Source: an uncultured Spirochaetota bacterium (GTDB lineage: Bacteria; Spirochaetota; Spirochaetia; SZUA-6; CAVTHK01). Taken from it: a stretch of DNA of 64,000 nucleotides. How positions within the stretch are numbered: position 1 is the first letter of the stretch; every line of letters starts with the position of its first letter. The stretch spans positions 195,346 through 259,345 of the forward strand of contig CAVTHK010000002.1 of NCBI GenBank assembly GCA_963734495.1, given 5' to 3'. A program made the translations under genes and the position numbers. Positions 253-55,065 of the stretch are shown here, in pieces. Below the pieces are notes generated by a model. It was not told the origin of the DNA. It made no database searches and worked only from the letters and a program-made list of their open reading frames with translations.

Positions 253-1808
<1,556 letters not shown>

Positions 1809-1985
1809 TAGAGAAAGCTTTTCGTAGAACCGGTAAAACGGACATCCGGTGTCCGCTTCTTCCGTCCTCCCCCTGGAGCGCCCCAAAGGCTCTCCACCCC
1901 ATTACTCCCCTCCCTCTTTCTTGAAGTCTCCGCGGAGCTGAGGCGTGCGCGCTCGATGCAGGTTGCTCCGCGGGGTGTTGCGCCG

Positions 1986-2059
<74 letters not shown>

Positions 2060-2122
2060 GCAGGGCCGGCGGTGATGGCCGGCGGCGCCGGGACAAAAGG
2101 GTCCTGCGCGCTCGTGGGCGTG

Positions 2123-2135
2123 GTTCTTTGACAGG
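2123..2135 (+). promoter_or_regulatory. spacer boxA-like element
   Basis: GTTCTTTGACAGG, matching the leader copy, upstream of 23S. Confidence 0.6.
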
Positions 2136-2207
2136 TTCGAGGCTGGGTTGGGGGTGCTTGAGGGCACGATTGGCTCAGCCGTAAGGGAAGGGGACAGGAG
2201 TTAATAT

Positions 2208-5196
<2,989 letters not shown>

Positions 5197-5394
5197 ATAT
5201 TATCTTGTGTCCTTTCCCCCCCTGCGATGCAGGGGCCCCCGTGGGCTTTGCCATTCCCGACCTTCGGTCGGGACCAGGGCGCCCTGGCGCCCACGGGGCC
5301 CTACATCCTGTAGGGCTGTCCGACATAGGCGAGGCTCGCGCCTCGCCGCACAAGCCTGCCCGCCCGCGGGGCAGGGGCAAGACAGACACTCAAT

Positions 5395-5511
<117 letters not shown>

Positions 5512-5563: not shown

Positions 5564-7966
5564 CTACGCCAGCCCGTGCTCGACGCGGCTGATGTGTATG
5601 AGTTGCTGCTCCTCGCCGAGCATGACGAAGTAAGCCGACCAGCCGCCCATGCGGACGCGCAGGTGGCGGTACTTCTCGGGCTCTTTCATGGCGCGCCTCA
5701 GCTCCTCGACATCGGTGACCGTGGCGGTGAGCATGTTGCCGCCGAGGTCGACGAACGCGCGGATCAGGGCCGCCAGGCGGCGGGTGCCCTGCTCGCCGCG
5801 CATCCCGCTCGCGGAAAAGCGCAGGTCGATCGGCGCGCCGCCTGCGAGCTCGTCCACGCTCATCTTGAGGTAGGAGTTGATCGCGGCGGTCGGCCCGGAC
5901 ACGTCGGCGCCGGCGGCGGGGGACAGGTTGGCGGCGATCGCCTCGCCGGCATGCCGCCCGTCCGCGCTCGCCGCGAGCTCCTTTCCGATCATCGCGTACC
6001 AGGAGAAGGTGCCGATCGAGCACGGGAAGATCACACCCGGGTGGCGCGAGGCGTGGGCGCGGGTGCGGTCGACGTACCAGCGCATCATCTCACGGCCGAT
6101 CTCGTCCGCGGAATCGTCGTCGTTGGCGAAGCGCGGAGCGCGCGCGGCGAATCGGCGGCGCAGGTTCTCGAATCCCTGCCAGTCGGCATCGAGGGCCTCG
6201 AGGAGCTCGCCCATGGTCACCGCGCCCTGCTCGAAGACGAGCGTGCGGATCGCCGAGGCCGCGTCGACGGCGTTGGCCAGCGCCTCGCCCATCACGTGCC
6301 AGATGCGGTAGCGGGCGCCGCCGCGGATGATGTCCCGCTCGCGCGCGAGGCAGTCCAGGGTGAGGGCCGACAGCAGGGGGTTGTAGCGGAAACGCCCGTG
6401 GCTGCTGTGCTCGAGCGAGCCGCTCTCGATGCCGGACCCGATGTGGTCGATCCCGCGCTGCAAGTGCGTGTCCGCCTGCTGCTTCCAGGCTTCCATGAGC
6501 TGGTCAAAGGACTTCCACTCGCGCGGGTCGCCGGTGTCGAGCCCCATCTGCCCGTGGACGCGCGAGCGGCCCCTGTGCAGGGCGAGCTCGAGGAACAGCA
6601 GGAAGTTCATCCCCCGGATCAGCTCCTGGTCGCTGCGCCCCTCGATCATCGTCTCCCAGCAGTTGGAATTGGCGTAGTCGCGGGCGTCCTCGATCGGAAC
6701 CCCGAGGGCGGCATAGGCGGGCGCGAGGACGTCGTCGTTGTTGATAAAGGGCATCCCCCCGCCGCCTTTGAGCACCTCCGCAGCCCGGTCCACGAGCTCG
6801 TGCGGCGAGCCCTTGTGCAACCGCAGCGTCACGACCGGCTGCGTCACCGCGAGCTTCTCCATGGCGTTCAGGCAGAGCCACGTGAGCTCGTTGGTCCCGT
6901 CGCTTCCGTCGGGCCTGATGCCGGCGAGCAGGAGGTTCTGCCCGAAGTGGTTGATCGCATCGGCGGCGTCGGTCGCCTTGCCCGGCCGCTTGCGGTGCCC
7001 GGCCGCTTCGCTCTCGTCGGCGGTATCGACGATCATGACGGCGTCGGGGGGGCGCCCGGCCGCATCCGCGCCGGCGGCTTTCGTGTAGAAGTTCTCGCGC
7101 ACGATCTGCGAGCGGTCGTTGAACCGCAGCCACAGACAGTCGATCAGCTCCTGCGCGGCTTCCAGCGTGATCGCGCCCGACTCGAGGTCGCGCCGCAGGC
7201 TGGGGTGGAGGTACTGGTCGAGGCGTCCGCAGGAGATCTTGGTGCCCGATACATGGAACGCGTGGTTCAGGAACCAGAAGGACTGCACCGCTTCGTGGAA
7301 GGATCCCGCCGGGTGCTCGGGCACGCGCCGGCACGCGGCAGCGATCCGCGCGAGCTCCGCGCGCCGCGGCCCGGAGGCGCCGGTGGCAAGCGCTTCGGCG
7401 AGCGCGGCGTAGCGGCGGGCAAAGCCGATGACGGCGCGGCACTCGATGCCGCAGGCTTCGAGGAACGCGAGCGTCTCGCCGCGTTCGGCGTCAGGCGGCC
7501 GGCGGCGGACTTCTTCAATTTTCTCCTCGATCTCCTCTATGACGCCGCCGAGCCCCTTGTCCATGAGGTCGTAGTAGTAGGGCGTCTTGTGCGAGAGGTG
7601 GTCCGTGATGGGAGCGCCGAGCCTGCGCGCCTCCGCGTGCTCGGCGGCGGTGGCGAAGTCCGGAAGCCCCGTGCGCAGCACCACCCCGTCGCGCAGGACC
7701 ATGCCGACGACGAGGTCGTCGGCCTCGATCGCGATCGGGATCTCGCGCAGCAGCTTCTCGAGGGCCCGCGCGTGGCGCACCGCGAGCGGCGAGGCGGCGA
7801 CCTCGGGGTCGTCGAGGACGGTGAGCTGCCTTCCCCACGTCACTTGAGGCCGAGTCATGCGGTCGCGCAGAACGGCGTAGAGCCGTTCCACGCGATCGGT
7901 GTGAGCCACGGCTGCGAGCGCGGCCGGCGCGAAGAGCGTTGTCCGTCCAGGTGATGCGACTGCCAC
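5564..7966 (-). CDS. glycyl radical enzyme (PFL2/glycerol dehydratase-like superfamily), ~800 aa, substrate unknown
   Basis: GRLDQYL, NELTWLCL, RFANDDD, Cys loop YANSNCWE, C-terminal Gly-radical domain PEKYRHLRVRMGGWSAYF; GTG start at 7966 with AGGAGG RBS. Confidence 0.92.
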   Translation of the reverse strand: MAVASPGRTTLFAPAALAAVAHTDRVERLYAVLRDRMTRPQVTWGRQLTVLDDPEVAASPLAVRHARALEKLLREIPIAIEADDLVVGMVLRDGVVLRTGLPDFATAAEHAEARRLGAPITDHLSHKTPYYYDLMDKGLGGVIEEIEEKIEEVRRRPPDAERGETLAFLEACGIECRAVIGFARRYAALAEALATGASGPRRAELARIAAACRRVPEHPAGSFHEAVQSFWFLNHAFHVSGTKISCGRLDQYLHPSLRRDLESGAITLEAAQELIDCLWLRFNDRSQIVRENFYTKAAGADAAGRPPDAVMIVDTADESEAAGHRKRPGKATDAADAINHFGQNLLLAGIRPDGSDGTNELTWLCLNAMEKLAVTQPVVTLRLHKGSPHELVDRAAEVLKGGGGMPFINNDDVLAPAYAALGVPIEDARDYANSNCWETMIEGRSDQELIRGMNFLLFLELALHRGRSRVHGQMGLDTGDPREWKSFDQLMEAWKQQADTHLQRGIDHIGSGIESGSLEHSSHGRFRYNPLLSALTLDCLARERDIIRGGARYRIWHVMGEALANAVDAASAIRTLVFEQGAVTMGELLEALDADWQGFENLRRRFAARAPRFANDDDSADEIGREMMRWYVDRTRAHASRHPGVIFPCSIGTFSWYAMIGKELAASADGRHAGEAIAANLSPAAGADVSGPTAAINSYLKMSVDELAGGAPIDLRFSASGMRGEQGTRRLAALIRAFVDLGGNMLTATVTDVEELRRAMKEPEKYRHLRVRMGGWSAYFVMLGEEQQLIHISRVEHGLA

Positions 7967-7980
7967 GGCGATCCCCTCCT

Positions 7981-8937
7981 CTATCCCCCGATGTGAATCT
8001 CGAGGCCGCTCGCGCGGCCGACGGCTGCGAGGCGATCCATGGTCCCGCCGCTCTGGGCCTGCGTCCCCTCGAGGGGGTAGCGGCGGCCGATCCAGCGATA
8101 CTTGGCGGCGGCGGCGGCGTTGTAGGGCAGGAGCGTGAGCTCCCTGAATCCGAGGCCCGCGACAAAGGCCGCCACGCGCGCGATGTGGGGCTCGTCGTCG
8201 TTGACGCCGGCGATGCACGGCACGCGCACATGCACCGCCGGGTGGGAGGCCGCGAGCCGCTCGAGGTTGGCGAGGATCGTGTCGTTCGGAGCCCCGGTGA
8301 GGCGCGCGTGCGCTTCGGAGTCCATGTGCTTGACGTCGTAGAGGACGAGGTCCGCGGCGCTCGCGACCGCGGCGAGGGTCTCCCAGGGGGCATAGCCGCA
8401 GGTCTCGAGCGCGGTGTCGATGCCGTCCCCGCGGCACGCCCGGAGCAGCTCGCACGCGAACTCCGGCTGCTGCGTCGGCTCACCGCCGCTCAGCGTCATG
8501 CCGCCGCCGCTGGCGCGGAAATAGGCGAGGTCGCGGGCGATCGAGCGCGCGAGCTCGGCGGCGCTCACGGAGCGGCCCGCCATCCGCAGCGCGCCCGGGT
8601 AGCAGACCGCGGCGCAGCGGCCGCACGCGGTGCACGCGGAGCGGTCGATGGCCGCGCGGCCGCCGGGGCCCGCCTCGTCCGCGAACAACGCGCCTTCGGG
8701 GCACTCGCCGAAGCAGAGGCCGCACGCGGTGCAGCGTTCGGGCTGGTAGATCAGCTGGGGCTTCGCGGCCTGGGACTCGGGGCTGTGGCACCACCGGCAG
8801 GCGAGCGGGCACCCCTTGAGAAAGACCACGGTCCGGATGCCGGGTCCATCGTGCGAGGCAAAACGGTCCACGTCCAGGACCAGGCCCCTGACCGCACGGG
8901 GGTCGCCTTCGCTTGGTTCCGCTTCAGGTTCGCTCAC
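7981..8937 (-). CDS. glycyl-radical enzyme activating enzyme (radical SAM with 2x[4Fe-4S] ferredoxin insert)
   Basis: HDGPGIRTVVFLKGCPLACRWCHSPE (CX3CX2C), CTACGLCFGEC and CTACGRCAAVC, SGGEP. Confidence 0.95.
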   Translation of the reverse strand: MSEPEAEPSEGDPRAVRGLVLDVDRFASHDGPGIRTVVFLKGCPLACRWCHSPESQAAKPQLIYQPERCTACGLCFGECPEGALFADEAGPGGRAAIDRSACTACGRCAAVCYPGALRMAGRSVSAAELARSIARDLAYFRASGGGMTLSGGEPTQQPEFACELLRACRGDGIDTALETCGYAPWETLAAVASAADLVLYDVKHMDSEAHARLTGAPNDTILANLERLAASHPAVHVRVPCIAGVNDDEPHIARVAAFVAGLGFRELTLLPYNAAAAAKYRWIGRRYPLEGTQAQSGGTMDRLAAVGRASGLEIHIGG

Positions 8938-8946: not shown

Positions 8947-8976
8947 ATCGTAGCGCGACGGGCGGCGGGGTGTAAA
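8947..8976 (-). promoter_or_regulatory. sigma70-like promoter for activase-GRE
   Basis: TTTACA-N18-TACGAT on the minus strand, 9 nt before the GTG. Confidence 0.45.
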
Positions 8977-8979: not shown

Positions 8980-10023
8980 CTATGCGCGACCCTGCACGCC
9001 GCGGACCATCGCCTTGATCGTGCCGACTGCGAACGCTTCGGCTGCGCGCGCGCCGCCGACCATGCGCGGGAGGTGATCGGACATGACGGCTCCGTCGTAG
9101 TCGACGCCGTGCAGCGCCTCCATCACGCGATGCATGTCCATGTACCCGTCGTCCAGGAACGTCTCCGTGAAGCCTTCGGGCATCGGCGCCGTGACGTTGC
9201 GAAAGTGCACCTTGAAGAGCTTCCGCCGCTTCCCGAAGTACCGGATCGCCTCGACGACGTCCTTGCCCATCGCGGTTCCGCCTTCGAGCCAGCATCCGGT
9301 GCAGAGGCAGACGCCGACGTTCGGGCTGTCCGCGATCTCGATCGCCCTCTTGTAGCCGGCGAACGTGCCGAAGAGGCAGCGGGGCACGCCCCCGAGCGGA
9401 TAGACCGGCGGATCGTCGGGATGGATGCCGATGAACACCCCCGACTCCTCGGCCACCGGGACGACCTTGCGGATGAACCAGGAAAAGTTGTCCCAGAGCT
9501 CTTCCTCGCTGTAGCGCCGGCCGTGCGAAAGCGGCTCGCGCCACTCCTGCCCGACCCATCGCCCGACCGTCGGGCGATCGATGTGGAAGGCGCGCGCCAC
9601 CGCTCCGCCGCGGATCGGCTCGGGCTCGCCGCTCCAGATGCCGTTCCCCATGTGAGCGTACGTGGAGTAGCGGATGCCCGCCTCGCCCAGGGCGCGGATG
9701 TAGGCCAGATACTCCTCGATCTTCGCGTCGCGGCCCTCGAGGGCGAGCGTCACCTCGGGCATGTTGTGGCATCGGAGGTTCCCGAGGCGATAGACCTTGA
9801 GCCCGTGCCGCTCGACGCGCTCGCGGAACGACGCGTAGCTCTCGGCCGGGCGGCCGTGCTGGTCGTGGGCCATCTCCGTCATGACCCACTCGACGCCGAG
9901 CTGCTGCACGAACCGGATGTCCTCCTCCGACGCGTCCCAGGCCAGCTTGGTGCCGACCTGGATGCCCGGCCGGCCGGCGACGTAGCCGGGCACGGCCTTG
10001 AGCGGGTAGCCTTTTGCTTCCAT
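8980..10023 (-). CDS. mannonate dehydratase (UxuA)-family TIM-barrel protein
   Basis: EEELWDNFSWFIRKVVPVAEESGV, IHPDDPP, VHFRNV, ETFLDDGYMDM, SDHLP. Confidence 0.85.
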   Translation of the reverse strand: MEAKGYPLKAVPGYVAGRPGIQVGTKLAWDASEEDIRFVQQLGVEWVMTEMAHDQHGRPAESYASFRERVERHGLKVYRLGNLRCHNMPEVTLALEGRDAKIEEYLAYIRALGEAGIRYSTYAHMGNGIWSGEPEPIRGGAVARAFHIDRPTVGRWVGQEWREPLSHGRRYSEEELWDNFSWFIRKVVPVAEESGVFIGIHPDDPPVYPLGGVPRCLFGTFAGYKRAIEIADSPNVGVCLCTGCWLEGGTAMGKDVVEAIRYFGKRRKLFKVHFRNVTAPMPEGFTETFLDDGYMDMHRVMEALHGVDYDGAVMSDHLPRMVGGARAAEAFAVGTIKAMVRGVQGRA

Positions 10024-10103: not shown

Positions 10104-11042
10104 ATGCATCCGCTCTGGGGCCCCTACGGCCGCGCGGCCGCCGCGCTGGCCGCGCGCGTCGCGGAAAGCGGCGCCAACGCGATCTGGTTCCACGGCTTCG
10201 ACCCGGAGGCGTTCGAGTCCTGCGCGCGCGCCGGCCTTGAGCCCTGCGTCGAGCTCAAGACGTTCCGCGCCGACTTCGCCGCGAGGCCCGACCTCGCGCC
10301 GATCGGCGTCGACGGGAAGCCGATCCGGTACGGCCGGCTCGTGCAAGGCGTGTGCCTGAGCCGGCGCGATTTCGTCGACGCGATCGGGGAGAGTCTCGAG
10401 GCGGGGCTCGACGCGTTCGCTCCGGCGGGCGTGTGGCTCGACTACCTGAGCTACGCCGGGTGGTTCGAGACGCCGGAGCCGGACCTGCAGGAGAGCTGCT
10501 TCTGCCGCGACTGCATCGCCGAGTTCTGTGAGGCCACCGGTATCGACGCAGGCACGCCTGCCGGGATCCTGGCGCACCACGCGCAGGCCTGGACCGACCA
10601 CAAGTGCCGGCGCATAGCGGCCTTCGCGCGCCGGTATGCGGCCATCATCCGGGCGAAGCGGCCGGGCTGCGTCGTCGGCGCCTACATGTGTCCCTGGACG
10701 CCGGCGGAGCACGACGGCGCGCTGCGCCGGATCTTCGCGCAGGACTACTCCCTGCTCGCCGGCGCGATCGACGTCTTTACGCCCCTGATCTACGCGCAGA
10801 AGAGCGGCCGCCCGCCGTCGTGGGCCGCGGAGCTCCTCGCGGGCTCGCGCGCCTTTGTTCCGCCGGGCGCCCGCGTGCAGCTCATCCTCGACGCGCTGGA
10901 CTTTCCCGCGTCCATGGAGGCGGCGGCCGCATCGCCCGCCCGGTCGTACGGGCTGCAGATGTTCGGCGGCGCGTCCCTGTTCGAGGATCAAGACAGGCTC
11001 GCGGTCTGGACGCGACTCGTCACGCGCATGCGCGGCCGCTGA
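10104..11042 (+). CDS. hypothetical protein, probable glycoside-hydrolase-like TIM barrel with a Cys cluster
   Basis: GVWLDYLSY, ESCFCRDC, FAQDYSLL, DVFTPLIY resemble GH-like barrel proteins; typical codon usage. Confidence 0.55.
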   Translation: MHPLWGPYGRAAAALAARVAESGANAIWFHGFDPEAFESCARAGLEPCVELKTFRADFAARPDLAPIGVDGKPIRYGRLVQGVCLSRRDFVDAIGESLEAGLDAFAPAGVWLDYLSYAGWFETPEPDLQESCFCRDCIAEFCEATGIDAGTPAGILAHHAQAWTDHKCRRIAAFARRYAAIIRAKRPGCVVGAYMCPWTPAEHDGALRRIFAQDYSLLAGAIDVFTPLIYAQKSGRPPSWAAELLAGSRAFVPPGARVQLILDALDFPASMEAAAASPARSYGLQMFGGASLFEDQDRLAVWTRLVTRMRGR

Positions 11043-15668: not shown

Positions 15669-16691
15669 GTGAGCAAGCTTCCCGCAGCGCCCACCCTGGA
15701 TGACGTGGCGCACCGCGCCGGCGTGTCGCCCGCTTCGGTCTCGCGGGTGCTGAACGGCGTCGGCCCGACGAGCACGGCCCTGCGCGATGCCGTACGGAAA
15801 GCCTCCGAGGAGCTGGGGTACGTGCCGCGCCGCTCCCGGCCCTCGGGCGCGCGCCCCGTCGTCGCGGTGCTGACGCCGGACCTGCTGAACCCGTATTTCA
15901 ATGAGATCATCCGCGGCATCGAGGAGCGCGCCTGGATCGCCGGGCTGGTGACGTCCGTCATGGAGGTCGCCGGCAGCCCGGACGCGGGCGGCGCCGCGGC
16001 CGAGTGGCTGAGCTCCGAGCGCGTAAGGGGCACTGTGGTCTTTGGCGGCATCTTCTCCAACGAAGAGCTGAAAGCGTTTGCCGCCTCGCGCACCGATCCG
16101 CTGGTGGCCATCAACCAGGTCATCGAGGACCGGGACATCCTCTGCATCAACATCGATTACGCGACCGCGATGCAGCAGGCGACCACGCACCTGTTGGAGC
16201 TCGGGCACCGGCGGATCGTGTTCGTGGGGAGCGAGAGCTCGCTGACCTCCGAGGCCAAGGTGCGCGGGATCCGGCAGGCTATGGCCCTGAGGGGGCTCGA
16301 GCTCGCCGACGAGGACATCCTCCACGGGGCGGGGACCGTGGAGTGGGGGTTCCAGGCCACGAGCGCGCTGCTGGCGAGGCCGCCGGAAAAGCGGCCCACG
16401 GCCGTCATCGGCGCCAGCGACCTGATCGCCCTCGGAGTGCTGCACGCGGTCCGCAGCGGACAGCTATCGGTCCCGCGCGACGTCTCCGTCGTCGGCTTCG
16501 ACGACATCGCCATGGCGTGCCACGCCAACCCGCCTCTCACGACGATCTCCGCGCCCAAGCCGAACATGGGCCGCCTGGCGGTCGACCTGATCCTGCGCGG
16601 CGGCGACGCGAAGCCGCTGGCGCTCTCGAGCTTCATCATGCTCGAGAGCCCGCTCGTCGTGCGCGAGTCGACGGCCCGCGTGGCCGGGTAG
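15669..16691 (+). CDS. LacI-family transcriptional regulator
   Basis: TLDDVAHRAGVSPASVSRVLN HTH; LGHRRI, SDLIALG, VPRDVSVVGFDD, PPLTTI, LVVREST. Confidence 0.96.
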   Translation: MSKLPAAPTLDDVAHRAGVSPASVSRVLNGVGPTSTALRDAVRKASEELGYVPRRSRPSGARPVVAVLTPDLLNPYFNEIIRGIEERAWIAGLVTSVMEVAGSPDAGGAAAEWLSSERVRGTVVFGGIFSNEELKAFAASRTDPLVAINQVIEDRDILCINIDYATAMQQATTHLLELGHRRIVFVGSESSLTSEAKVRGIRQAMALRGLELADEDILHGAGTVEWGFQATSALLARPPEKRPTAVIGASDLIALGVLHAVRSGQLSVPRDVSVVGFDDIAMACHANPPLTTISAPKPNMGRLAVDLILRGGDAKPLALSSFIMLESPLVVRESTARVAG

Positions 16692-16709
16692 GCGGCCCCC
16701 GGCCGGCGG

Positions 16710-18182
<1,473 letters not shown>

Positions 18183-18187
18183 CTATT

Positions 18188-18205
18188 GCTTGACAGCGGT
18201 CAAGC
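18188..18205. promoter_or_regulatory. palindromic operator candidate overlapping TTGACA
   Basis: GCTTGAC-AGCG-GTCAAGC in the divergent GH1/SBP intergenic region. Confidence 0.5.
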
Positions 18206-18246
18206 GCGGGCGGATTATTCTGGGGCAATACTCCGGAGGAGGTGTC

Positions 18247-19509
18247 ATGAGAAAGCTCGTTTTGCTCGTAGTCATCGTCTCTCTGAGCGGGATCGCCTGG
18301 GCAAGCGGCGGACAGGAAGGCTCCAAGGGTCCCGTCACGCTGACCTGGTGGGCGCTCGACTTCAACAAAGGGCGCGAAGGCGATCTCGCCAAGAAGTACA
18401 TGGATGCCAACCCCAATGTGAAGATCTCCGTCCAGCAGAACACGTCGCTCGGCCTGCAGGACAAGGTGCTCGTGGCGCTGCAGTCCGGGTCCGTTCCCGA
18501 CATCATCGACATCCAGGCGGGCTGGAACATCCCGTACGCCAGCACGGGGCAGGTGCTCGCTCTCGACAGCTACATCGCCAAGTCGACGGTGGTGAAGAAA
18601 GAGGACTTCTGGCCCGCCAACTGGAACTCCGCGAACTACAACGGCAAGGTCTACGGCGTCCCCTACCGCGCCGAGTCCCACGGCTTCATCTACAACAAGA
18701 AGCACTACACGCAGGTCGGCCTCGACCCGAACCAGGGCCCCAGGACCTGGAAGGAGCTGATCGCCAACGCGCAGAAGCTCACGCGGACCGCCGACGGCAG
18801 GAAGATCTACGGCTACGCCATCTGCGGCGGCGGCGAGATCGGCAACATGATCTTCAACATGGTGCCGCAGATCTGGGCCAACGGCGGCGACGTGCTCTCG
18901 GCCGATTACAAGAAGGTCACCATCAACGAGCCGGCCGCGGTCGAGGCCGTGCAGTTCTACACGGACTTCTACACCAAGTACCACACGTCGCCGGACACGA
19001 CGCTGCAGAACGGCGGCAACCAGAATCGCGACCTCTTCATCCAGGAGGTGGTCTCGCAGTTCCAGAGCGGCTCCTACGTCATCTCGGTGGCCAGGGCCGG
19101 CAATCCCAACATGAAGACCGACATGGGGTTCGCGATGATCCCGCCTCCCGAGGGCAAGAAGCCGGCCGCGGTGCTCGGCGGCTGGAACTTCATGATCCCG
19201 CAGAAGACCGCGAACGCCAACGCGGCGTGGAAGCTCGTCGAGTGGCTGGCCCAGCCCGACAACATGGCGTACTACACCGACACGTTCCCGGCGACGGCCT
19301 CGGCCATGAAGAACGCGAAGTTCTCGGATCCGGAGCTCAAGCCGTTCATCGACATGCTGCCCTACACGCACATCAGCCCGCCCCTCAAGGGGTGGATCCA
19401 GATGCAGGCGGCCATCTTCAAGGAGGTGCAGAACGTCCTCCTCGGGCAGAAGCAGGTCAAGCCGGCCATGGACGACGCGGCCGCGGCCATGACCAAGCTG
19501 CTCGACTAG
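18247..19509 (+). CDS. sugar ABC transporter substrate-binding protein
   Basis: Signal peptide then ASGGQE; PDII, YNGKVYGVP, YNKK, PRTWKEL, LGGWN; GGAGGAGG RBS. Confidence 0.92.
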   Translation: MRKLVLLVVIVSLSGIAWASGGQEGSKGPVTLTWWALDFNKGREGDLAKKYMDANPNVKISVQQNTSLGLQDKVLVALQSGSVPDIIDIQAGWNIPYASTGQVLALDSYIAKSTVVKKEDFWPANWNSANYNGKVYGVPYRAESHGFIYNKKHYTQVGLDPNQGPRTWKELIANAQKLTRTADGRKIYGYAICGGGEIGNMIFNMVPQIWANGGDVLSADYKKVTINEPAAVEAVQFYTDFYTKYHTSPDTTLQNGGNQNRDLFIQEVVSQFQSGSYVISVARAGNPNMKTDMGFAMIPPPEGKKPAAVLGGWNFMIPQKTANANAAWKLVEWLAQPDNMAYYTDTFPATASAMKNAKFSDPELKPFIDMLPYTHISPPLKGWIQMQAAIFKEVQNVLLGQKQVKPAMDDAAAAMTKLLD

Positions 19510-19540
19510 CGGGCGGCCGGCCGAACGGGGAGCGTGAGTC

Positions 19541-20417
19541 ATGCGGCACCGGGGCTCGGGCTACGGGCGTCGCGGCGGCGTGGCGTTCACGCTCCCCGTC
19601 ACTCTCTTCCTGCTCACCTTTATCGCGTTCCCCCTGTTCTTCAACGTGCAGCTGAGCTTCGTCTCGAACGGGCATTTCGCCGGGGCCAAGTACATCAGCG
19701 CCGTGCTCACCGACGCAACGATGTGGGACTCGCTGCGGATCACGGCCATCTATGTCGTCGGATCGGTCGTGTTCCAGATCCTGCTCGGGACCGCCGTGGG
19801 CATCGCTCTGGACCAGGAGTTCTACGGAAGGGCCGCGGCGCGCAGCATCACGCTGATCCCTTGGGTGGTCCCGGGGGCCGTAGCCGCGACGACGTGGGCG
19901 TGGATGTACCACGGGGATTTCGGCATCGTCAGTCGCGTGCTGATCGAGCTCGGGGTGGACATCGCCCGCAAGGGGCTGCTCACGGTGCCCTCCACGGTCC
20001 TCGGCGCGTTGATCCTCGTCAACGTCTGGAAGATGTTCCCGTTCGTGGCCGTCATGGTGCTCGCGGGCCTGCAGGGCATCGACCGCAATCTCTACGAGGC
20101 GGCCAAGGTCGACGGGGCGACCTTCTGGCAGGAGGTGCGGCATGATCACGATCCCGAACCTCCGCCACGTCCTGCTCTCCGTGCTTCTGTTGCTGACCAT
20201 CTGGGGGGTCAACAGCATCACGCTCATCTACACGATGACCGGCGGCGGCCCGGCGGATCTCTCGCTGATCCTGCCGCTGCACGTCTACCGGATGGGGTTC
20301 CAGTTCTTCAACTTCAACGTGGCCGCTGTGGAGTCGCTCTTTCTGTTCGTCATGCTCGCGGCTCTGATCGCAGTCTACTTGAGCCTGTTCGGGGAGCGCG
20401 AGGAGCGCCGCAGATGA
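19541..20417 (+). CDS. sugar ABC permease 1 with an apparent +1 frameshift at ~20141
   Basis: IPWVVP, LAGLQGIDRNLYEAAKVDGA (EAA loop); continuation ITIPNLR..MTGGGP is in another frame ending at 20417. Confidence 0.85.
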
Positions 20418-21238
20418 AGCGACGGCCGCGCGTCGGGCTCCACGCCTTCATGATCGTCGTTTGCCTCTTCAGCCTCTTCCCGTTCGTGTGGATGATCACG
20501 ACGTCGCTCAAGACTCTGGGCGACATTCACTCGATCCCGCCGAGGCTGCTGCCGAAGCAGGTGACGGTCGAGAGCTACGGCAACGTCTTTACGAAGTCGA
20601 ACATCCCGCGTTACTTCATCAACAGCGCCATCACCTCCACCGGGGCCACCGCGATCGCGCTGGTCTTCGCCGTGCTGGGCGGGTACGGGTTCTCGCGCTT
20701 CCGCTTCCGGGGCCGCGGCCTGCTGCAGACGGCGGTGCTCTCGGCGCAGATGATGCCGACGGCCGCGATCATCGTGCCGCTGTTCATCATCCTGCGGTCC
20801 ATGGGGCTGCTGAACACCTACCTGGGATTGATCCTGGCCTACCTCATCATCACGCTGCCGCTCAGCGTCTGGATGATGACCGGCTACATCCACTCGATCC
20901 CCGTGGAGATCGAGGAGGCGGCGACGATCGACGGCTGCAGCCGCCTGCGGGTCCTCACGCGCCTCGTGATCCCCATCTCGATGCCGGGCATCGTGGCCAC
21001 GGCCGTGTACTCGTTCGTGGTGACCTGGAACGAGTTCCTGCTGGCGCTCAGCCTCGCGACGGACAAGAAGGTCATGACGCTGCCGATCGGCCTGGCGGAG
21101 TTCACCAAGGAGTACGTCACGGACTGGGGCGCTCTCATGGCGGGCTCGGTCATCATGACCCTGCCCATCGTGGTCGCGTTTTTCGGGCTGCAGCGCGCGT
21201 TCGTGAGCGGACTGACCGCGGGCGCGACCAAAGGATAG
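20414..21238 (+). CDS. sugar ABC permease 2
   Basis: LFPFVWMITTSLK, IPVEIEEAATIDG, WNEFL, LQRAFVSGLTAGATKG; ATGA overlap with permease 1. Confidence 0.93.
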   Translation: MKRRPRVGLHAFMIVVCLFSLFPFVWMITTSLKTLGDIHSIPPRLLPKQVTVESYGNVFTKSNIPRYFINSAITSTGATAIALVFAVLGGYGFSRFRFRGRGLLQTAVLSAQMMPTAAIIVPLFIILRSMGLLNTYLGLILAYLIITLPLSVWMMTGYIHSIPVEIEEAATIDGCSRLRVLTRLVIPISMPGIVATAVYSFVVTWNEFLLALSLATDKKVMTLPIGLAEFTKEYVTDWGALMAGSVIMTLPIVVAFFGLQRAFVSGLTAGATKG

Positions 21239-40846: not shown

Positions 40847-40918
40847 TTGACAACTCTCCGGCGCAGGCTAATATAGGCTCTGGGTGGGAAAAAGTGGGAA
40901 TAAGTGGAAGTGAGTGGC
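40847..40918 (+). promoter_or_regulatory. dcw promoter with MraZ-binding GTGG(G) direct repeats
   Basis: TTGACA at 40847, TAATAT at 40869; GTGGG/GTGGG/GTGGA/GTGGC at 40884, 40894, 40904, 40914 (10-bp period). Confidence 0.75.
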
Positions 40919-40919
40919 G

Positions 40920-41363
40920 ATGATCACCGGCGAGTACCGCTATTCACTCGACGAAAAAGGAAGGCTCATGATCCCCGCCAAGGTGAGGGCCGAGATCACG
41001 GGAAACGTGCTCGTCCTGACCCGGGGGATCGATCGGTGCCTGTGGCTCTTTCCGCCGGAGCAGTGGAAGGCCAAGTCCGAGCAGCTCCTTTCGTCGACCT
41101 CCTTGTTCCACGAGAAGGATCGGCTGATCCACCGCCGGATCATCGCTCCCGCCCAGGAAATCGAAATCGACCGTCCGGGAAGGATCATGATCCCGGCGAC
41201 GCTGCGCGAGTACGGAGGTCTCACAAAGGACTGCATCGTCCTCGGCATGCTGACCCATCTCGAGGTGTGGGACGAGCCGACCTATCGGCAGTACTGGGAG
41301 ACGAGCGAAAGCCGCTTCCTCGAGGCGGCTGAGGAGATCGGAGACCGCCTGAGGACGAGGTAG
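40920..41363 (+). CDS. mraZ: transcriptional regulator MraZ
   Basis: GEYRYSLDEKGRLMIP, EIDRPGRIMIP, LEVWD. Confidence 0.96.
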   Translation: MITGEYRYSLDEKGRLMIPAKVRAEITGNVLVLTRGIDRCLWLFPPEQWKAKSEQLLSSTSLFHEKDRLIHRRIIAPAQEIEIDRPGRIMIPATLREYGGLTKDCIVLGMLTHLEVWDEPTYRQYWETSESRFLEAAEEIGDRLRTR

Positions 41364-41369
41364 ACGCCG

Positions 41370-42311
41370 GTGAGCGGAAGCGTTCCGACGATCCACACGC
41401 CGGTGCTTCTGGCCGAGGTTCTCGGCCTGCTCGACCCGCCCGCGGGGCCGAGCCTGTTCGTGGACGCCACGCTCGGCGAGGGAGGGCACGCCGAGGCGTT
41501 TCTGGATCGCGCCCCCGGGCTGAGCCTGGTGGGCATCGAGGTGGATTCCGGCATTGCGGCCGTGGCGCAGGCGAGGCTGGCCCGATTCGGGCGGAGGTTC
41601 AGCCTGTGGCGCGGCTGGTTCTCGGATTACTTCGCGGGGCTGCGGGCACATGGGGGGGGGAGGCCCGATCGCGTGTTGTTCGACCTGGGCGTGTCGAGCT
41701 ACCACTACGAGGCCAGCGGCCGCGGGTTCTCGTTCGCCAGGGACGAGGCGCTCGACATGCGCCTCGACCTCGCGGCCGAAACGACCGCGGCGCACCTGGT
41801 CAACCGGCTCGACGAGACAGAGCTCGCCGACCTCTTCTATCGCTACGGCGAGGAGCGGCGCTCCCGGCCGATCGCGCGCGCTATAGCGCGCGAGCGCGAC
41901 CGCGCGCCGATCGAGACCTCCGGCCGGCTGGCGGACGTCATCCGCCGCGCCGTCCCCGCCTCGTACCGCCGCGGCCGCATTCACCCGGCCACCCGCTGCT
42001 TCCAGGCGCTGCGCATCGCGGTCAACGGGGAGCTCGACCGGATCGAGACGGCCGTGCGGGACGCGGCGTCTTCGCTGGCCCCGGGCGGCCGCGTGGGCGT
42101 GATCGCCTTCCATTCGCTTGAGGACCGGATCATCAAGACGATGTTCCGCAGCCTCGCCCGGGAGAATGAAGCTGAAGGGCGGCAACCGGATTCCGGCGCG
42201 CGCTACCGGCTGGTCACCCGCAAGGCGGTCATGGCCACGGAGGACGAGGTGCGGGCCAACCCGCCCTCGCGGAGCGCGCGGCTGCGCGTCCTCGAGAGGG
42301 TCGTCGCATGA
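41370..42311 (+). CDS. rsmH: 16S rRNA m4C1402 methyltransferase
   Basis: HTPVLL, DATLGEGGH, FDLGVSS, RGFSF, FQALRIAVN, FHSLEDR, NPPSRSARLR. Confidence 0.97.
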   Translation: MSGSVPTIHTPVLLAEVLGLLDPPAGPSLFVDATLGEGGHAEAFLDRAPGLSLVGIEVDSGIAAVAQARLARFGRRFSLWRGWFSDYFAGLRAHGGGRPDRVLFDLGVSSYHYEASGRGFSFARDEALDMRLDLAAETTAAHLVNRLDETELADLFYRYGEERRSRPIARAIARERDRAPIETSGRLADVIRRAVPASYRRGRIHPATRCFQALRIAVNGELDRIETAVRDAASSLAPGGRVGVIAFHSLEDRIIKTMFRSLARENEAEGRQPDSGARYRLVTRKAVMATEDEVRANPPSRSARLRVLERVVA

Positions 42312-42616
42312 AAAGGGCGCTTCTCCTCCTGCTTGCCGCCTCGATCCCGATCCTGCTCGGAGTCAAGGTGTGGCAGGTGCAGCGCACGCAGGCGCTGCTC
42401 GAGAAGGTGGAAGCCCTCGACCAGGAGCAGCGCGACTGGCTGGAGCGGAACAAGAAGCTGCTCTCGGCCATCGCGGTGTTCCGCTCGCCGGCCAGGATCG
42501 AAAAGCTGGCAAAGGAAAAGCTGGGGCTCGGCGCGGGCGTCGAGCCGGACCTGCGCATCGAGCTCCCGTCCACGGGAGCCCCGGGAGCCGCGGAAACCGG
42601 GGGAGGGGGGCCCTAG
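42308..42616 (+). CDS. ftsL: cell division protein FtsL-like
   Basis: TM segment plus coiled coil, SPARIEKLAKEKLGL; position after rsmH. Confidence 0.75.
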   Translation: MKRALLLLLAASIPILLGVKVWQVQRTQALLEKVEALDQEQRDWLERNKKLLSAIAVFRSPARIEKLAKEKLGLGAGVEPDLRIELPSTGAPGAAETGGGGP

Positions 42617-42618
42617 GC

Positions 42619-44025
42619 ATGGCCGCGAGCCGGCTCGCCCTCGACCGCGGGCAGCTCCTCGAGAGCACCCGCGGGACTCTCCTGGCCGACGCGCCCGTGT
42701 GGCCGCTCGACAGCGTGGTGATCGACTCGCGCAAGGCCGCCCGGGGCGCCCTCTTCGTGGCGCTTGCCGGCGCGCGGACCGACGGCCACGAGCACGTCGC
42801 GGATGCCGTGAGCCGCGGCGCGCGCTGCCTGCTGATCCGCCGCGACAGGCAGGAGCTCGTGCGCGAGCGCCTCGCCGCCGCGGGCCGCGACGCCGTCGCC
42901 GTCGTTGCCGTCGACGACACGCTCGCCGGGCTGCAGGACATCGCGGCGCGGCGCATCGCGCGGCTCGCGGGGATGGTCAAGATCGGCGTCACGGGAAGCT
43001 CGGGCAAGACCACGACCAAGGAGGCGATCGGGAGCATCCTCGCCCAGGCTGCCCCGACCGCGATCAGCGAGGGCAACCTCAACTCCGAGTCGGGCCTTCC
43101 CCTCGCGCTGCTCTCCGCCGGGCCGGAGCACCGCTACGGCGTTTTCGAGCTGGCGGTCGACCACCCCGGCGAGATGGACCGGCTTTCCGCGATCCTCCGG
43201 CCCGACGTCGCGGTGATCACCAACATCGGCAGCGCGCACGGCGAGCAGCTCGGCTCCCGCGACGGGATCGCCGCGGAGAAGAAGAAGATCTTTTCGCGCT
43301 TCGACGGGCGCGGGACCGGGTTCGTGTGGGAGGGAGACGATTACCGCGAGTTCCTCTCGCGGGATGTAAAAGGCAAGGTTCTGACCTTCGGGGAGCGAAG
43401 CACCCCGGGGTACCGGGGGAGCGTGGACCTGGGGCTGGATGGCTCTGCCATCGACTGGGAGGGGCTCCGGGTCCACTTCCCTCTTTTTGGGCCTCACAAT
43501 CTCCTGAACGCGCTGGCCGCGGTCTCGGTGGCCGTCGAGCTGGGCATCGCGCCGGAGCATGTTCGGGCGGGGCTCGAGCGCGTGCGTCCGCTGTTCGGCC
43601 GCTCGCAGGTCGTGCGCGGCGCCTGGACGCTGCTCGTGGACTGCTACAACTCCAACCCCGAGTCGCTCTCGGCGGTGCTCCGCTTCGTGAGCGGCCTGCC
43701 GTGGCCAGGGCGCCGGGTCGCGGTCCTCGGCAGCATGCTGGAGCTGGGAGCCGCGAGCGGGGCCGCGCACGAGGAAGCCGGCCGCCGGCTGTGCGAAAGC
43801 CGCGTCGATCGCGTCTTTCTCTTCGGCGAGGAAATGAAGGCAGCTGAAGGCGTCTGCCGGGCGCTCTGCCCCGAGCGGCTCGCGCTGGCCACCGTCGAGA
43901 TCGAGCGCCTGATCGCGGCCGTGCGCGCAGAGCTCCGCGGCGGCGACCTCGTGCTGATCAAGGGGTCGCGCGGCATGGCGCTCGAGCGGCTGCTGGAGCC
44001 CGTGGGGGAGCCGCGATGCTGCTGA
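42619..44025 (+). CDS. murF: UDP-N-acetylmuramoyl-tripeptide--D-Ala-D-Ala ligase
   Basis: IDSR, DGHEH, GVTGSSGKTTTKE, GNLN, DCYNSNPES, LGSMLELG, IKGSRG. Confidence 0.95.
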   Translation: MAASRLALDRGQLLESTRGTLLADAPVWPLDSVVIDSRKAARGALFVALAGARTDGHEHVADAVSRGARCLLIRRDRQELVRERLAAAGRDAVAVVAVDDTLAGLQDIAARRIARLAGMVKIGVTGSSGKTTTKEAIGSILAQAAPTAISEGNLNSESGLPLALLSAGPEHRYGVFELAVDHPGEMDRLSAILRPDVAVITNIGSAHGEQLGSRDGIAAEKKKIFSRFDGRGTGFVWEGDDYREFLSRDVKGKVLTFGERSTPGYRGSVDLGLDGSAIDWEGLRVHFPLFGPHNLLNALAAVSVAVELGIAPEHVRAGLERVRPLFGRSQVVRGAWTLLVDCYNSNPESLSAVLRFVSGLPWPGRRVAVLGSMLELGAASGAAHEEAGRRLCESRVDRVFLFGEEMKAAEGVCRALCPERLALATVEIERLIAAVRAELRGGDLVLIKGSRGMALERLLEPVGEPRCC

Positions 44026-45095: not shown

Positions 45096-45105
45096 GAGGG
45101 CCGCG

Positions 45106-47065: not shown

Positions 47066-47079
47066 AGGAGAGGCGAGAA

Positions 47080-48315: not shown

Positions 48316-48404
48316 CGGTGCGCCGCGGTGGTGCGCCGCGGATCGGAGCCGGCCGGGGGGGCCGGCGGGACAGCAAGGGTGCATGCTGAAACTGGGAGGA
48401 TAGG

Positions 48405-50455: not shown

Positions 50456-50564
50456 TGAAGGGTCAAGGCGGGAGGCGCGCGAAGCCCGTTTCTCTTGACA
50501 GGGGATTCCCCGCGGCGGGCCTTCGTGCAGCGGCCGGACGGGCCGCGGGCCGGAGGAGACTCGC

Positions 50565-54450: not shown

Positions 54451-54581
54451 GGGGGAGGCGGGCGGCTCGGCCGGCGTCCGGCCGTAGCCCGGGCGCGGTC
54501 CGCCGCGCCCAGGCCGCATGCAGCAGCGGCGGTCGAGGTCCGCCGCAAGTCGGGCGGCTACCCGACCGGAGCGCTCACCCT

Positions 54582-54609: not shown

Positions 54610-54637
54610 TAGAGGTAACGAGGAGGGGGAGGACCCG

Positions 54638-55054: not shown

Positions 55055-55065
55055 GAGAGGCATCC

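What the first reader, a model, noticed from the sequence alone, without database searches (positions are those of the whole stretch)
5564..8937. Glycyl radical enzyme with non-canonical catalytic loops (SNCWE / RMGGW) and a dedicated activase: candidate new radical chemistry
Seen: an ~800-aa GRE whose Gly loop reads VRMGGWSAYF (putative radical Gly codon 5642-5644) and whose Cys loop reads YANSNCWE (Cys codon 6659-6661). It also has a low-complexity stretch of roughly 40-50 aa, likely an insertion, between LRFNDR and FGQNLLLAG. An adjacent activase carries CX3CX2C plus two ferredoxin motifs. Established: characterised GREs usually have RV(A/S)G(Y/F) Gly loops; Cys loops are GCVE (CutC, glycerol/propanediol dehydratases, HypD), GCLE (IslA, HPAD) or CC (PFL). 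Inference: a single Cys with C-x-E points to an eliminase/isomerase-type enzyme rather than PFL, and Asn before and Trp after the Cys suggest a different substrate pocket and an uncharacterised subfamily.
Basis: partly seen in the sequence, partly recalled or inferred. Interest (0 to 1): 0.8.

Follow-up and report, generated by a model that had tools for sequence, protein, structure and literature searches.

The report
Uncharacterised glycyl radical enzyme clade
This is an intact oxygen-sensitive radical enzyme and its activating partner from a large, widespread family that nobody has characterised; it most likely removes water or a similar group from a small sugar-derived compound.

Summary
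Window 5564-7966 (-) encodes an 800-aa glycyl radical enzyme (GRE), and 7981-8937 (-) encodes its radical-SAM activase.

The enzyme is not an orthologue of any characterised GRE:
- It scores under 40% of every NCBIfam equivalog cut-off.
- It is 24-29% identical to solved GREs.
- It falls outside six named references on a tree.

It belongs to a large clade with the signatures NSNCWET (Cys loop), R(M/V)GGW (Gly loop) and a roughly 40-aa insertion beside the active site. The clade occurs in Chloroflexota including SAR202, Bathyarchaeia, Spirochaetota and Bacillota. A wider "GCWE" sister radiation surrounds it.

The catalytic set is the ordinary eliminase set: Gly775, Cys436, Glu438 and His126, which aligns with His164 of glycerol dehydratase. 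Nothing points to new radical chemistry. The insertion is real but is not low-complexity.

In the Bacillota relatives the GRE sits beside a sugar-type ABC transporter, DhaK/DhaL and a CoA-acylating methylmalonate-semialdehyde dehydrogenase. This suggests, by inference only, a 3-oxo-acid product such as malonate semialdehyde, perhaps from glycerate or a 2-O-substituted glycerate. The window's own clade lacks this context.

Verdict: a new variant of a known kind, of moderate interest.

The parts
5564..7966 (-). Glycyl radical enzyme CDS, 800 aa, GTG start
   Evidence: ORF and start codon. Pfam PFL-like 1e-130 and Gly_radical 5e-19. AlphaFold mean pLDDT 91.4, pTM 0.91.
5627..5656 (-). Gly loop VRMGGWSAYF; predicted radical Gly775 at codon 5642-5644
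   Evidence: Coordinates. Aligns with RVAGYSA of GD, CutC, HypD, YbiW and PflD-like.
6653..6676 (-). Cys loop YANSNCWE; Cys436 at codon 6659-6661, Glu438 at codon 6653-6655
   Evidence: Coordinates. Aligns with GCVE/GCIE of the references. [NS]xCWE is present in 121 of 121 family sequences.
7574..7597 (-). LSHKTPYY motif; His126 (7589-7591) aligns with glycerol dehydratase His164
   Evidence: HMMER alignments and MAFFT table. H126 and K127 are invariant in 62 sequences.
6974..7093 (-). Clade-specific insertion of about 40 aa (residues 292-331), followed by the conserved DAADAINHFGQN (6935-6973)
   Evidence: Absent from five named references and present in clades A, B and C. Not low-complexity. 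pLDDT 68-83 with a beta-hairpin at 318-329.
7981..8937 (-). GRE-activating radical-SAM enzyme, 318 aa
   Evidence: TIGR02494 326.6 bits against cut-off 174.35. CX3CX2C at 8788-8811 and two ferredoxin-type motifs at 8701-8733 and 8602-8634.
8947..8976 (-). Promoter-like site TTTACA-18-TACGAT upstream of the activase (weak)
   Evidence: Consensus scan, 9 of 12 matches. One site found against 0.2 expected. Not evidence of function.
8980..10023 (-). UxuA-like (mannonate dehydratase family) TIM-barrel gene, same strand, 42 bp upstream of the activase; possibly co-transcribed
   Evidence: Pfam UxuA 4e-43. NCBIfam 125.8 bits against cut-off 191. PDB 3ban 4.9e-29. A member of the same ORF cluster (c47) occurs in four loci including the window, and immediately upstream of the activase only in the window and L018.

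Best explanation
The two genes encode a working glycyl radical enzyme system from an uncharacterised clade.

**Inferred mechanism, by homology with known eliminases.**
1. The activase uses its SAM-binding [4Fe-4S] cluster (CX3CX2C), fed by two auxiliary ferredoxin-type clusters, to abstract the C-alpha hydrogen of Gly775.
2. The stored glycyl radical makes a thiyl radical on Cys436.
3. The thiyl radical abstracts hydrogen from a substrate carbon that bears a hydroxyl group.
4. Glu438 deprotonates that hydroxyl.
5. His126 protonates a leaving group on the neighbouring carbon, most likely oxygen-linked.
6. The resulting alpha-carbonyl radical takes the hydrogen back from Cys436. The product is an aldehyde or ketone.

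**Shown.** The fold, the four catalytic residues and the partner activase. The protein belongs to a distinct clade with its own pocket residues and an insertion next to the active site.

**Inferred.** The mechanism, and that the substrate is a small carbohydrate-derived hydroxy compound. My best single guess is glycerate or a 2-O-substituted glycerate, giving malonate semialdehyde. This rests on the gene context of the Bacillota relatives, whose pocket motifs match the window's enzyme. I put it at about 0.15-0.2.
For: **Family and fold.** Pfam and NCBIfam domains. A high-confidence model, pLDDT 91.4. The best structural matches are the propanediol and glycerol dehydratases 5i2g, 9rco and 1r8w, at TM 0.80 and 27-29% identity.

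**Catalytic residues.** C436, E438 and G775 align with the catalytic residues of GD, CutC, HypD, YbiW and PflD-like. H126 aligns with the His that is present in the C-O cleaving enzymes and absent from CutC. The roles of CxE and His164 are as described in review PMC13450708, sections 5.6 and 5.7.

**Activase linkage.** An activase-cluster gene is present in 64 of 70 loci with a full GRE ORF. In 58 it lies within 3 kb, and in 57 it is on the same strand.

**Distinct clade.**
- NCBIfam scores: HpsG 368 against 1000, HypD 358 against 1100, CutC 308 against 1050, TIGR01774 426 against 678.
- Tree: clades A+B have support 100 and A+B+C support 99, with six named references outside.

**Product hint from clades B and C.**
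- 10 of 70 loci carry an ALDH next to the GRE, 5 in clade B and 5 in clade C.
- 7 of 7 tested reach the CoA-acylating methylmalonate-semialdehyde dehydrogenase model, at 550-571 bits against a cut-off of 448.5.
- The other 3 are 64-72% identical to one of those.
- L051 has a 2-hydroxy-3-oxopropionate reductase directly downstream, 432 bits against a cut-off of 397.
- DhaK/DhaL, CUT1-type ABC transporters and DkgA-like aldo-keto reductases recur.

**Transfer to the window's clade.** Clades A and B share SHK, NSNCWET, S(D/N)QE(L/M)IRG, GTFSW and NxSP.
Against: **No biochemical evidence of any kind.**

**The window's own clade (A) lacks the informative context.** Among 28 clade A loci with enough flank, counts are ALDH 0, Dak 0 and ABC permease 0. 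Clade A neighbours are heterogeneous: MR_MLE 4, sulfatase 4, B12-binding 5 and GlpA-like 4 of 28. The window has only a UxuA-like gene upstream.

**The role of DhaK/DhaL is not explained by a glycerate-to-malonate-semialdehyde reaction.**

**The counted loci are not independent.** L075/L077 are one species, and L039/L049 and L043/L045 are near relatives. ORF clusters were built with BLAST thresholds, so the counts are lower bounds.

**Pocket positions that bind glycerol in GD are not conserved here.** The GD residues, recalled from memory, are Ser282, Tyr339 and Tyr640. They correspond here to K243, G342 and G652. A simple diol-dehydratase analogy is therefore incomplete.

**Pocket inferences rest on sequence alignment only.** I had no model coordinates.

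**The Gly-domain fingerprint deviates at two positions.** Val is replaced by Met, and [IV] by His.
Confidence: 0.6

Rival explanations
1. It is a GRE isomerase like YbiW, PflD or HplG. The same Cys/Glu chemistry would cleave a ring C-O or C-N bond, so the product is an isomer of the substrate, for example an anhydro-sugar opened to a deoxy-ketose, rather than an elimination product.
For: Isomerases keep CxE and the His (review section 5.7; table). YbiW 8id7 matches the model at TM 0.81. The activase lies upstream of the GRE, as in ybiY-ybiW. In GD, CutC, HypD and PflD-like it lies downstream. Sugar-type transporters and glycoside hydrolases occur in many loci.
Against: Identity to YbiW and PflD is 25%, no closer than to the eliminases. 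On the tree the clade is not sister to YbiW or PflD-like specifically. No aldolase or sugar-phosphate machinery was seen next to the gene. A semialdehyde dehydrogenase as the direct neighbour in clades B and C fits an aldehyde product better.
Confidence: 0.15
2. It is simply a divergent B12-independent glycerol or 1,2-propanediol dehydratase.
For: The best structural matches are the PD and GD structures. His126, Cys436 and Glu438 are conserved. DhaK/DhaL together with an aldehyde reductase recall glycerol fermentation loci.
Against: The TIGR01774 score of 426 is below its cut-off of 678. GD substrate-contact positions are replaced. A 40-aa insertion abuts the position of GD Tyr339. The neighbouring dehydrogenase is a beta-carboxy-aldehyde-specific MMSDH, not a PduP- or DhaT-type enzyme. 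CUT1 ABC uptake is unusual for glycerol or propanediol; this last point rests on established knowledge, not on a test here.
Confidence: 0.1
3. It performs a radical reaction of a new type. Examples would be C-C cleavage into two C3 units, or a lyase reaction that releases a glycosyl group.
For: The pocket residues and the insertion are unlike any characterised GRE. Co-occurrence of DhaK/DhaL (a C3 ketose kinase) and MMSDH (a C3 semialdehyde) in clades B and C could mean that two C3 products arise from one substrate.
Against: All residues of the standard eliminase mechanism are present and no extra catalytic residue was identified. The evidence is gene context only, and it comes from clades B and C, not from clade A.
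Confidence: 0.07
4. It is a hydrocarbon-activating X-succinate synthase-like enzyme, as has sometimes been proposed for PflD-like GREs of sediment Chloroflexota and archaea.
For: Relatives occur in Dehalococcoidia and Bathyarchaeia from sediments and oxygen-minimum zones.
Against: BssA and MasD are the most distant eliminase-fold matches: E 3e-48 to 3e-57, 22-23% identity, TM 0.74-0.78. No small-subunit genes were seen in the ORF clusters. The context is carbohydrate-related.
Confidence: 0.03

Closest known systems
B12-independent 1,2-propanediol dehydratase (Roseburia inulinivorans, PDB 5I2G; also 9RCO) and glycerol dehydratase (Clostridium butyricum, PDB 1R8W)
   Same: Ten-stranded barrel fold, TM 0.80. 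Radical Gly, Cys-x-Glu and the leaving-group His are conserved. A dedicated ferredoxin-domain activase is present.
   Different: Only 27-29% identical. The Cys loop is NCWE, not GCVE, and the Gly loop is RMGGW, not RVAGY. There is a 40-aa insertion before the QN motif. The strand reads GTFSW instead of LYPSS. GD Ser282, Tyr339 and Tyr640 are not conserved. The activase is encoded upstream rather than downstream.
HpfG, (2S)-3-sulfopropanediol (DHPS) dehydratase
   Same: This is the closest analogy for the proposed reaction. HpfG dehydrates a 2,3-dihydroxypropyl acid (a sulfonate) to the 3-oxo product (review section 5.6.1). I propose the carboxylate counterpart here.
   Different: The HpfG equivalog scores 312 bits against a cut-off of 1000. 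No sulfonate-handling genes were seen in the window. The analogy is an inference.
YbiW / PflD, anhydro-sugar-phosphate isomerases
   Same: CxE and His are conserved. The activase-first gene order matches ybiY-ybiW. Both have a carbohydrate context.
   Different: 25% identity. The PRK09983 equivalog scores 300 bits against a cut-off of 1109. They lie outside the clade on the tree.
The wider uncharacterised 'GCWE' GRE radiation (e.g. Ruminiclostridium cellobioparum DSM 1351 locus L075; Hungatella MAGs)
   Same: Shares the VRMGGWSAY Gly loop, the CWE motif, the insertion and the GTFSW strand. It is sister to the window's clade with support 99.
   Different: 35-41% identical. It has N(N/D)GCWE instead of NSNCWET, GHI instead of SHK, and tDFyF instead of SDQELIRG, so the substrate is probably different. 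It is also uncharacterised.

Membership tests
Glycyl radical enzyme superfamily (PFL-like) | PFL-like barrel domain plus a C-terminal glycyl radical domain | tested here: met
   PF02901 at 437.9 bits and PF01228 at 69.2 bits, both above gathering scores. Foldseek probability 1.00 to more than 40 GRE structures.
Glycyl radical enzyme superfamily (PFL-like) | Fingerprint RVxG[FWY]x6-8[FL]x4Qx2[IV]x2R (as quoted in PMC13450708) | tested here: inconclusive
   The sequence reads R-M-G-G-W, x6, L, x4, Q, x2, H, x2, R. Arg, Gly, the aromatic residue, Leu, Gln and Arg are kept. Val is replaced by Met and [IV] by His. Both changes are shared by the clade. The Pfam model of the domain is still passed.
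Glycyl radical enzyme superfamily (PFL-like) | Catalytic Cys on the Cys loop | tested here: met
   C436 aligns with GD Cys433 and the equivalent Cys of CutC, HypD, YbiW and PflD-like. It is invariant in 62 of 62 family sequences.
Glycyl radical enzyme superfamily (PFL-like) | Cognate radical-SAM activase | tested here: met
   The adjacent gene scores 326.6 bits on TIGR02494 against a cut-off of 174.35. CX3CX2C and two Fe-S motifs are present.
Glycyl radical enzyme superfamily (PFL-like) | Formation of a stable glycyl radical | not testable with these tools
   Needs EPR on anaerobically activated protein.
GRE 1,2-eliminases / isomerases | Single Cys in a C-x-E motif, with Glu as the base | tested here: met
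   C436-W437-E438. The Glu aligns with GD Glu435 and CutC Glu491. The definition is taken from review sections 5.6 and 5.7.
GRE 1,2-eliminases / isomerases | Membership of a characterised equivalog (HpsG, HpfG, HypD, CutC, PflD-type) | tested here: not met
   Scores against cut-offs: 368.5/1000, 312/1000, 357.7/1100, 308.5/1050 and 299.7/1109 bits.
PFL2/glycerol dehydratase subfamily (TIGR01774) | Score above the curated subfamily cut-off | tested here: not met
   426.2 bits against a cut-off of 678.2.
Pyruvate formate-lyase | Adjacent Cys-Cys pair on the Cys loop; PFL equivalog score | tested here: not met
   There is a single Cys (NCWE). TIGR01255 scores 71 bits against a cut-off of 994.2. 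The reference TdcE/PflB has ACCVS.
X-succinate synthases | Close similarity to BssA/MasD and the presence of small subunits | tested here: not met
   These are the weakest matches among the eliminase-fold structures. No conserved small ORF was found next to the GRE other than antisense shadows. Small-subunit HMMs were not searched.

The most novel reading that the evidence does not exclude
The NSNCWET clade may be a radical hydroxy-acid eliminase. It would convert glycerate, or cleave 2-O-glycosyl-glycerate osmolytes such as glucosyl- or mannosylglycerate, to malonate semialdehyde. That product would then be turned into acetyl-CoA by a CoA-acylating semialdehyde dehydrogenase. This would be a GRE reaction not yet described. 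It would give SAR202 and other Chloroflexota, Bathyarchaeia, Spirochaetota and gut Bacillota an anaerobic route from sugar acids or compatible solutes to acetyl-CoA.
Probability: 0.15. Interest if true: 0.7.

Novelty: new variant of a known kind. Interest (0 to 1): 0.45.

Why it matters
GREs carry out chemically hard anaerobic reactions, and each newly assigned clade has revealed a new metabolic route. Past examples are choline to trimethylamine, hydroxyproline, isethionate and anhydro-sugars.

This clade is large. In one-genome-per-species data, 161 stretches (at most 161 species genomes) encode a relative with its motifs. It lies in lineages that dominate anoxic sediments and oxygen-minimum zones, including SAR202, Dehalococcoidia and Bathyarchaeia, and in gut Bacillota.

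Assigning its substrate would fill a gap in models of anaerobic carbon turnover. The conserved neighbour genes in culturable relatives make the question directly testable.

The finding is not, however, evidence of a new kind of radical enzyme. A 2026 review already notes that whole GRE clades remain unassigned.

Tried and rejected
**Orthology with a characterised GRE: rejected.** Evidence is. In the plasmid collection, 157 of 157 records with a match are below 60% identity. The 40 rows listed, spread down the ranking, are at 22.6-33.6%.

**Low-complexity or disordered insertion: rejected**.

**Genome context of the window's own clade.** No conserved partner was found apart from the activase, so it gives no substrate.

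**UxuA-like neighbour as a conserved partner: rejected.** A member of its ORF cluster occurs in four loci including the window, and the protein family itself is very common, with 5174 hits.

**The AKR near the window's GRE.** It is convergent with an intervening gene of unknown function and overlaps a spurious long ORF. It is not part of the operon.

**IQ-TREE run.** It did not finish in 300 s, so FastTree was used instead. Supports are SH-like only.

**Expression.** No RNA holder was listed. No conclusion on expression or habitat is drawn.

- ESM Atlas gave only generic 'PFL family' clusters.
- Earlier findings of this scan gave one unrelated HypD locus.

**Host taxonomy: left unnamed.** The 16S is only 75-76% identical to three Chloroflexia MAGs and 79% to a Caldicoprobacterales MAG that carry relatives of the GRE.

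**Literature.** Six full-text searches found no paper on this clade, and none linking a GRE to malonate semialdehyde. The library holds only CC-licensed PMC papers and bioRxiv. Levin et al. 2017 (GRE similarity network) is recalled and was not seen. No supplements were opened.

**C. termitidis transcriptome paper (PMC4877739), passages only.** Of seven 'PFL' genes, only the true PFL was abundant on cellulose, xylan, cellobiose and xylose. This gives no substrate clue.

**The intervening 312-aa ORF (10104-11042).** It has no Pfam, NCBIfam or PDB match.

Full report
**What is at the coordinates**

The window opens with a complete rRNA operon on the plus strand:
- 16S at 254-1805
- tRNA-Ile at 1986-2059
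- 23S at 2208-5198
- 5S at 5396-5511

Fifty-two bases after the 5S gene, a minus-strand gene ends at 5564. The long ORF 5564..8455 (963 aa) overlaps the upstream gene in another frame. An in-frame GTG at 7966 is preceded by GAGGAGGGG and lies 14 bases after the upstream stop codon. It gives an 800-aa protein.

That protein matches Pfam PFL-like (1e-130) and Gly_radical (5e-19). The upstream ORF 7981..8937 (318 aa) is a glycyl-radical-enzyme activase. It scores 326.6 bits on TIGR02494 against a cut-off of 174.35.

One search places the features as follows:
- Gly775 at 5642-5644
- Cys436 at 6659-6661
- Gly loop VRMGGWSAYF at 5627-5656
- Cys loop YANSNCWE at 6653-6676
- Activase CX3CX2C at 8788-8811
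- Two CX2CX2CX3C motifs at 8701-8733 and 8602-8634

**The insertion**

About 40 residues (292-331) have no counterpart in five named references: C. butyricum GD, K. pneumoniae CutC, P. distasonis HypD, E. coli YbiW and a Vibrio PflD-like enzyme. The insertion is real.

It is not low-complexity. Its entropy is 3.58 bits against a mean of 3.67, and 30% of 40-aa windows are as low or lower. It is a family feature, followed by the near-invariant AGHRxR...DAADAINHFGQN.

AlphaFold2 was run with a 62-sequence alignment and gave mean pLDDT 91.4 and pTM 0.91. It models residues 318-329 as a beta-hairpin at pLDDT 68-83. The insertion ends at the position that aligns with Tyr339 of glycerol dehydratase, which is G342 here. 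The role of Tyr339 in binding glycerol is recalled, not tested.

**Not a known enzyme**

- Every NCBIfam GRE equivalog scores far below its cut-off. The values are HpsG 368.5 against 1000, HypD 357.7 against 1100, HpfG 312 against 1000, CutC 308.5 against 1050, PflD-type 299.7 against 1109, IAD 227.6 against 1100, HPAD 169 against 1150 and PFL 71 against 994.
- The broad TIGR01774 subfamily is also missed, at 426 against 678.
- Against PDB sequences the best match is a CutC at 6e-106. All eliminases lie between 1e-73 and 1e-106.
- By structure the top matches are the propanediol dehydratases 5i2g and 9rco and glycerol dehydratase 1r8w, at TM 0.80 and 27-29% identity. The other eliminases and isomerases are at 24-26%.
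- A FastTree of 75 sequences puts the window's protein in a 25-row set with support 99. Clades A+B have support 100 and A+B+C support 99. All six named references and two paralogues from the same genome fall outside. An IQ-TREE run did not finish.
- Of the 63 sequences scanned (the query and the 62 nearest full-length 50%-identity representatives), none reaches an equivalog. The best E-values are 8e-216 for HypD and 2e-213 for the PflD type. By conversion from E-value these are roughly 700 bits, against cut-offs of 1000-1109.

**The family**

The 5.8-billion-protein search returned 377 hits at E of 0.001 or better among 7998 candidates scored. The best 120 are 56-95% identical. All 121 sequences examined (120 hits plus the query) carry [NS]xCWE: 119 have NSNCWE and 2 have NSYCWE. 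By regex, 88 of 121 read RMGGWSA. The other tails printed read RMGGWTA or RVGGWTA, apart from a few cut or extended C-termini.

In one-genome-per-species data, 165 stretches matched the two motifs and 161 encode a relative. The best 80 were kept. By their record titles the hosts fall into three identity bands:
- 54-66% identity: Dehalococcoidia and SAR202, Chloroflexia, Caldilineales, Anaerolineaceae, Spirochaetaceae, a Gemmatimonadaceae MAG and Bathyarchaeia.
- 42-49% identity: Bacillota (Hungatella, Oscillospiraceae, Lachnospiraceae, Christensenellales) and Treponema.
- 33-41% identity: a further set including Ruminiclostridium cellobioparum, with N(N/D)GCWE but the same VRMGGWSAY.

I call these groups clade A (NSNCWETM; 34 of 70 full ORFs, including the window), clade B (NSNCWE[TI]L; 19) and clade C (GCWE; 17).

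In the 1.84-billion representative library the GRE superfamily has 1857 members at E of 1e-30 or better. Among the nearest 150, 35 carry CWE and 13 of those also carry an R(M/V)GGW Gly loop.

The 2026 review PMC13450708 lists the characterised eliminases and isomerases, all with CxE. It states that entire clades lack validation. I read sections 5.6, 5.7 and 7 and searched passages, and saw no CWE enzyme and no Chloroflexota enzyme mentioned.

**How it probably works**

C436, E438 and G775 align with the catalytic residues of all references. H126 lies in LSHKTPYY, and H126 and K127 are invariant in 62 sequences. H126 aligns with His164 of glycerol dehydratase and with the equivalent His of PD, HypD, YbiW and PflD-like. 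CutC, the C-N lyase, has no His there.

By the mechanism summarised in the review, this points to hydrogen abstraction next to a hydroxyl group, deprotonation by Glu, and acid-assisted loss of an oxygen-linked leaving group. This is inference from homology.

The rest of the pocket differs from every reference:
- SHK replaces G(V/H)GH-type sequences.
- GTFSW replaces LYPSS, LSISN or SSISA.
- SDQELIRG follows the Cys loop.
- ANxSP replaces DGxSP.
- INHFG replaces GYPMY.

Several of the clade-specific residues are basic (K127, R327, R451). This would suit an anionic substrate, but I could not measure distances.

**Gene context**

I clustered all ORFs of 79 loci plus the window by BLAST. An activase is present in 64 of 70 loci, usually directly upstream (median gap -35 bp).

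Among 59 loci with at least 5 kb of flank, counts within 6 kb of the GRE are:

| Feature | Clade A (of 28) | Clade B (of 15) | Clade C (of 16) |
|---|---|---|---|
| ABC permeases | 0 | 6 | 8 |
| Dak domains | 0 | 4 | 7 |
| ALDH | 0 | 5 | 5 |
| AKR | 2 | 5 | 1 |
| MR_MLE | 4 | 0 | 3 |
| Sulfatase | 4 | 0 | 1 |
| B12-binding | 5 | 0 | 1 |
| GlpA-like flavoproteins | 4 | 0 | 0 |

These are lower bounds, and the loci include close relatives.

The ALDH is directly downstream of the GRE in 8 of its 10 loci. Seven of seven tested reach the model for CoA-acylating methylmalonate-semialdehyde dehydrogenase, at 550-571 bits against a cut-off of 448.5. The other three are 64-72% identical to one of those. 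In L051 the downstream gene is a 2-hydroxy-3-oxopropionate reductase, 432 bits against a cut-off of 397.

These enzymes act on 3-oxo-carboxylates (established knowledge). A 1,2-elimination that yields malonate semialdehyde would start from a 3-hydroxy-2-X-propanoate. With X = OH this is glycerate. With X = a glycosyl group it is glucosyl- or mannosylglycerate, which would also fit the CUT1 sugar transporters. DhaK/DhaL remains unexplained by this scheme.

Clades A and B share the pocket motifs while clade C does not, so the idea can be carried from B to the window's enzyme only with caution. Clade A has none of this context.

In the window, the only same-strand neighbour is a divergent UxuA-family gene at 8980-10023. 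It is rarely linked to the GRE elsewhere. A weak promoter-like site lies between it and the activase.

**The host**

The genome held is 5.38 Mb in 18 contigs and 83% complete. It carries three more GRE loci:
- A HypD-like gene on C1, split across two frames.
- A 743-aa NGCME / RVGGF enzyme on C4.
- An RVTGF enzyme on C6.

It also carries an MMSDH-like gene on C11, split across two frames, and three Dak1 genes. None of these is linked to this locus.

Of 40 relatives in the same order, including one same-genus genome at 99% completeness, only one has a family member at E of 1e-150 or better, at 59% identity. The gene was not found in the others with this query. Its closest relatives lie in other phyla. 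The host's 16S is only 75-79% identical to the 16S of four genomes that carry relatives of the GRE. This patchiness fits lateral spread of an accessory catabolic gene.

**Verdict**

It overreaches in suggesting new radical chemistry.

What is new is a large clade with its own active-site signature and a testable, context-derived product hypothesis. No experiment or paper assigns it: six searches in a library limited to open-licence papers and preprints found nothing.

Noticed in passing
window 254-5511: A complete rRNA operon (16S, tRNA-Ile(GAT), 23S, 5S) ends 52 bp before the stop codon of the GRE, which is encoded on the opposite strand.
   Followed up: partly
own genome G000:C1:277301-279647 (loci L087/L088): A HypD-like GRE (GGTSGCVETGC, RVAGYSD) is split across two reading frames. 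An MMSDH-like gene on C11:646319-647753 is split in the same way. Either both are pseudogenes, or the assembly carries indel errors.
   Followed up: partly
own genome G000:C4:35824-37626 and C6:84959-86713: Two further divergent GRE paralogues: one with an NGCME Cys loop and RVGGF Gly loop, and one with an RVTGF Gly loop and no C-x-E found. Both sit on long branches outside the clade.
   Followed up: partly
window 10104-11042 (+): A 312-aa ORF with high GC3 (0.93) is divergently placed next to the UxuA-like gene. It has no Pfam, NCBIfam or PDB match.
   Followed up: partly
loci L001-L079 compared with L094-L097 and L099: In this clade the activase is usually encoded upstream of the GRE (median gap -35 bp). 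In the GD, CutC, HypD and PflD-like reference loci it is downstream. Only ybiY-ybiW shares the upstream order.
   Followed up: no
clade A loci L002, L004, L021, L022, L032, L059: Corrinoid-binding (B12-binding) proteins lie near the GRE in several Dehalococcoidia, SAR202 and Bathyarchaeia loci, with URO-D-like and DUF1638 genes alongside in L022. B12-binding is seen in 5 of 28 loci with enough flank.
   Followed up: no
L027 (record titled Candidatus Collierbacteria, 37.8% GC): A partial homologue at a contig end shows 81% identity to residues 212-608 in its best segment, the highest among named records, on a low-GC contig.
   Followed up: no
window 40914-49574 and 54518-63858: A dcw cell-division cluster (MraZ, MraW, Mur ligase, MraY, FtsW, FtsA, FtsZ) and a flagellar cluster (FliE, FliF, FliG, FliH, FliI, FliK-like). 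Two tyrosine recombinase genes flank a DprA gene at 49436-52551.
   Followed up: no
window 15669-21238: A LacI-family regulator, a GH1 glycosidase and a CUT1 sugar ABC transporter lie 7-12 kb from the GRE. They are separated from it by lysine-pathway genes (DAP dehydrogenase, LysA-like).
   Followed up: no
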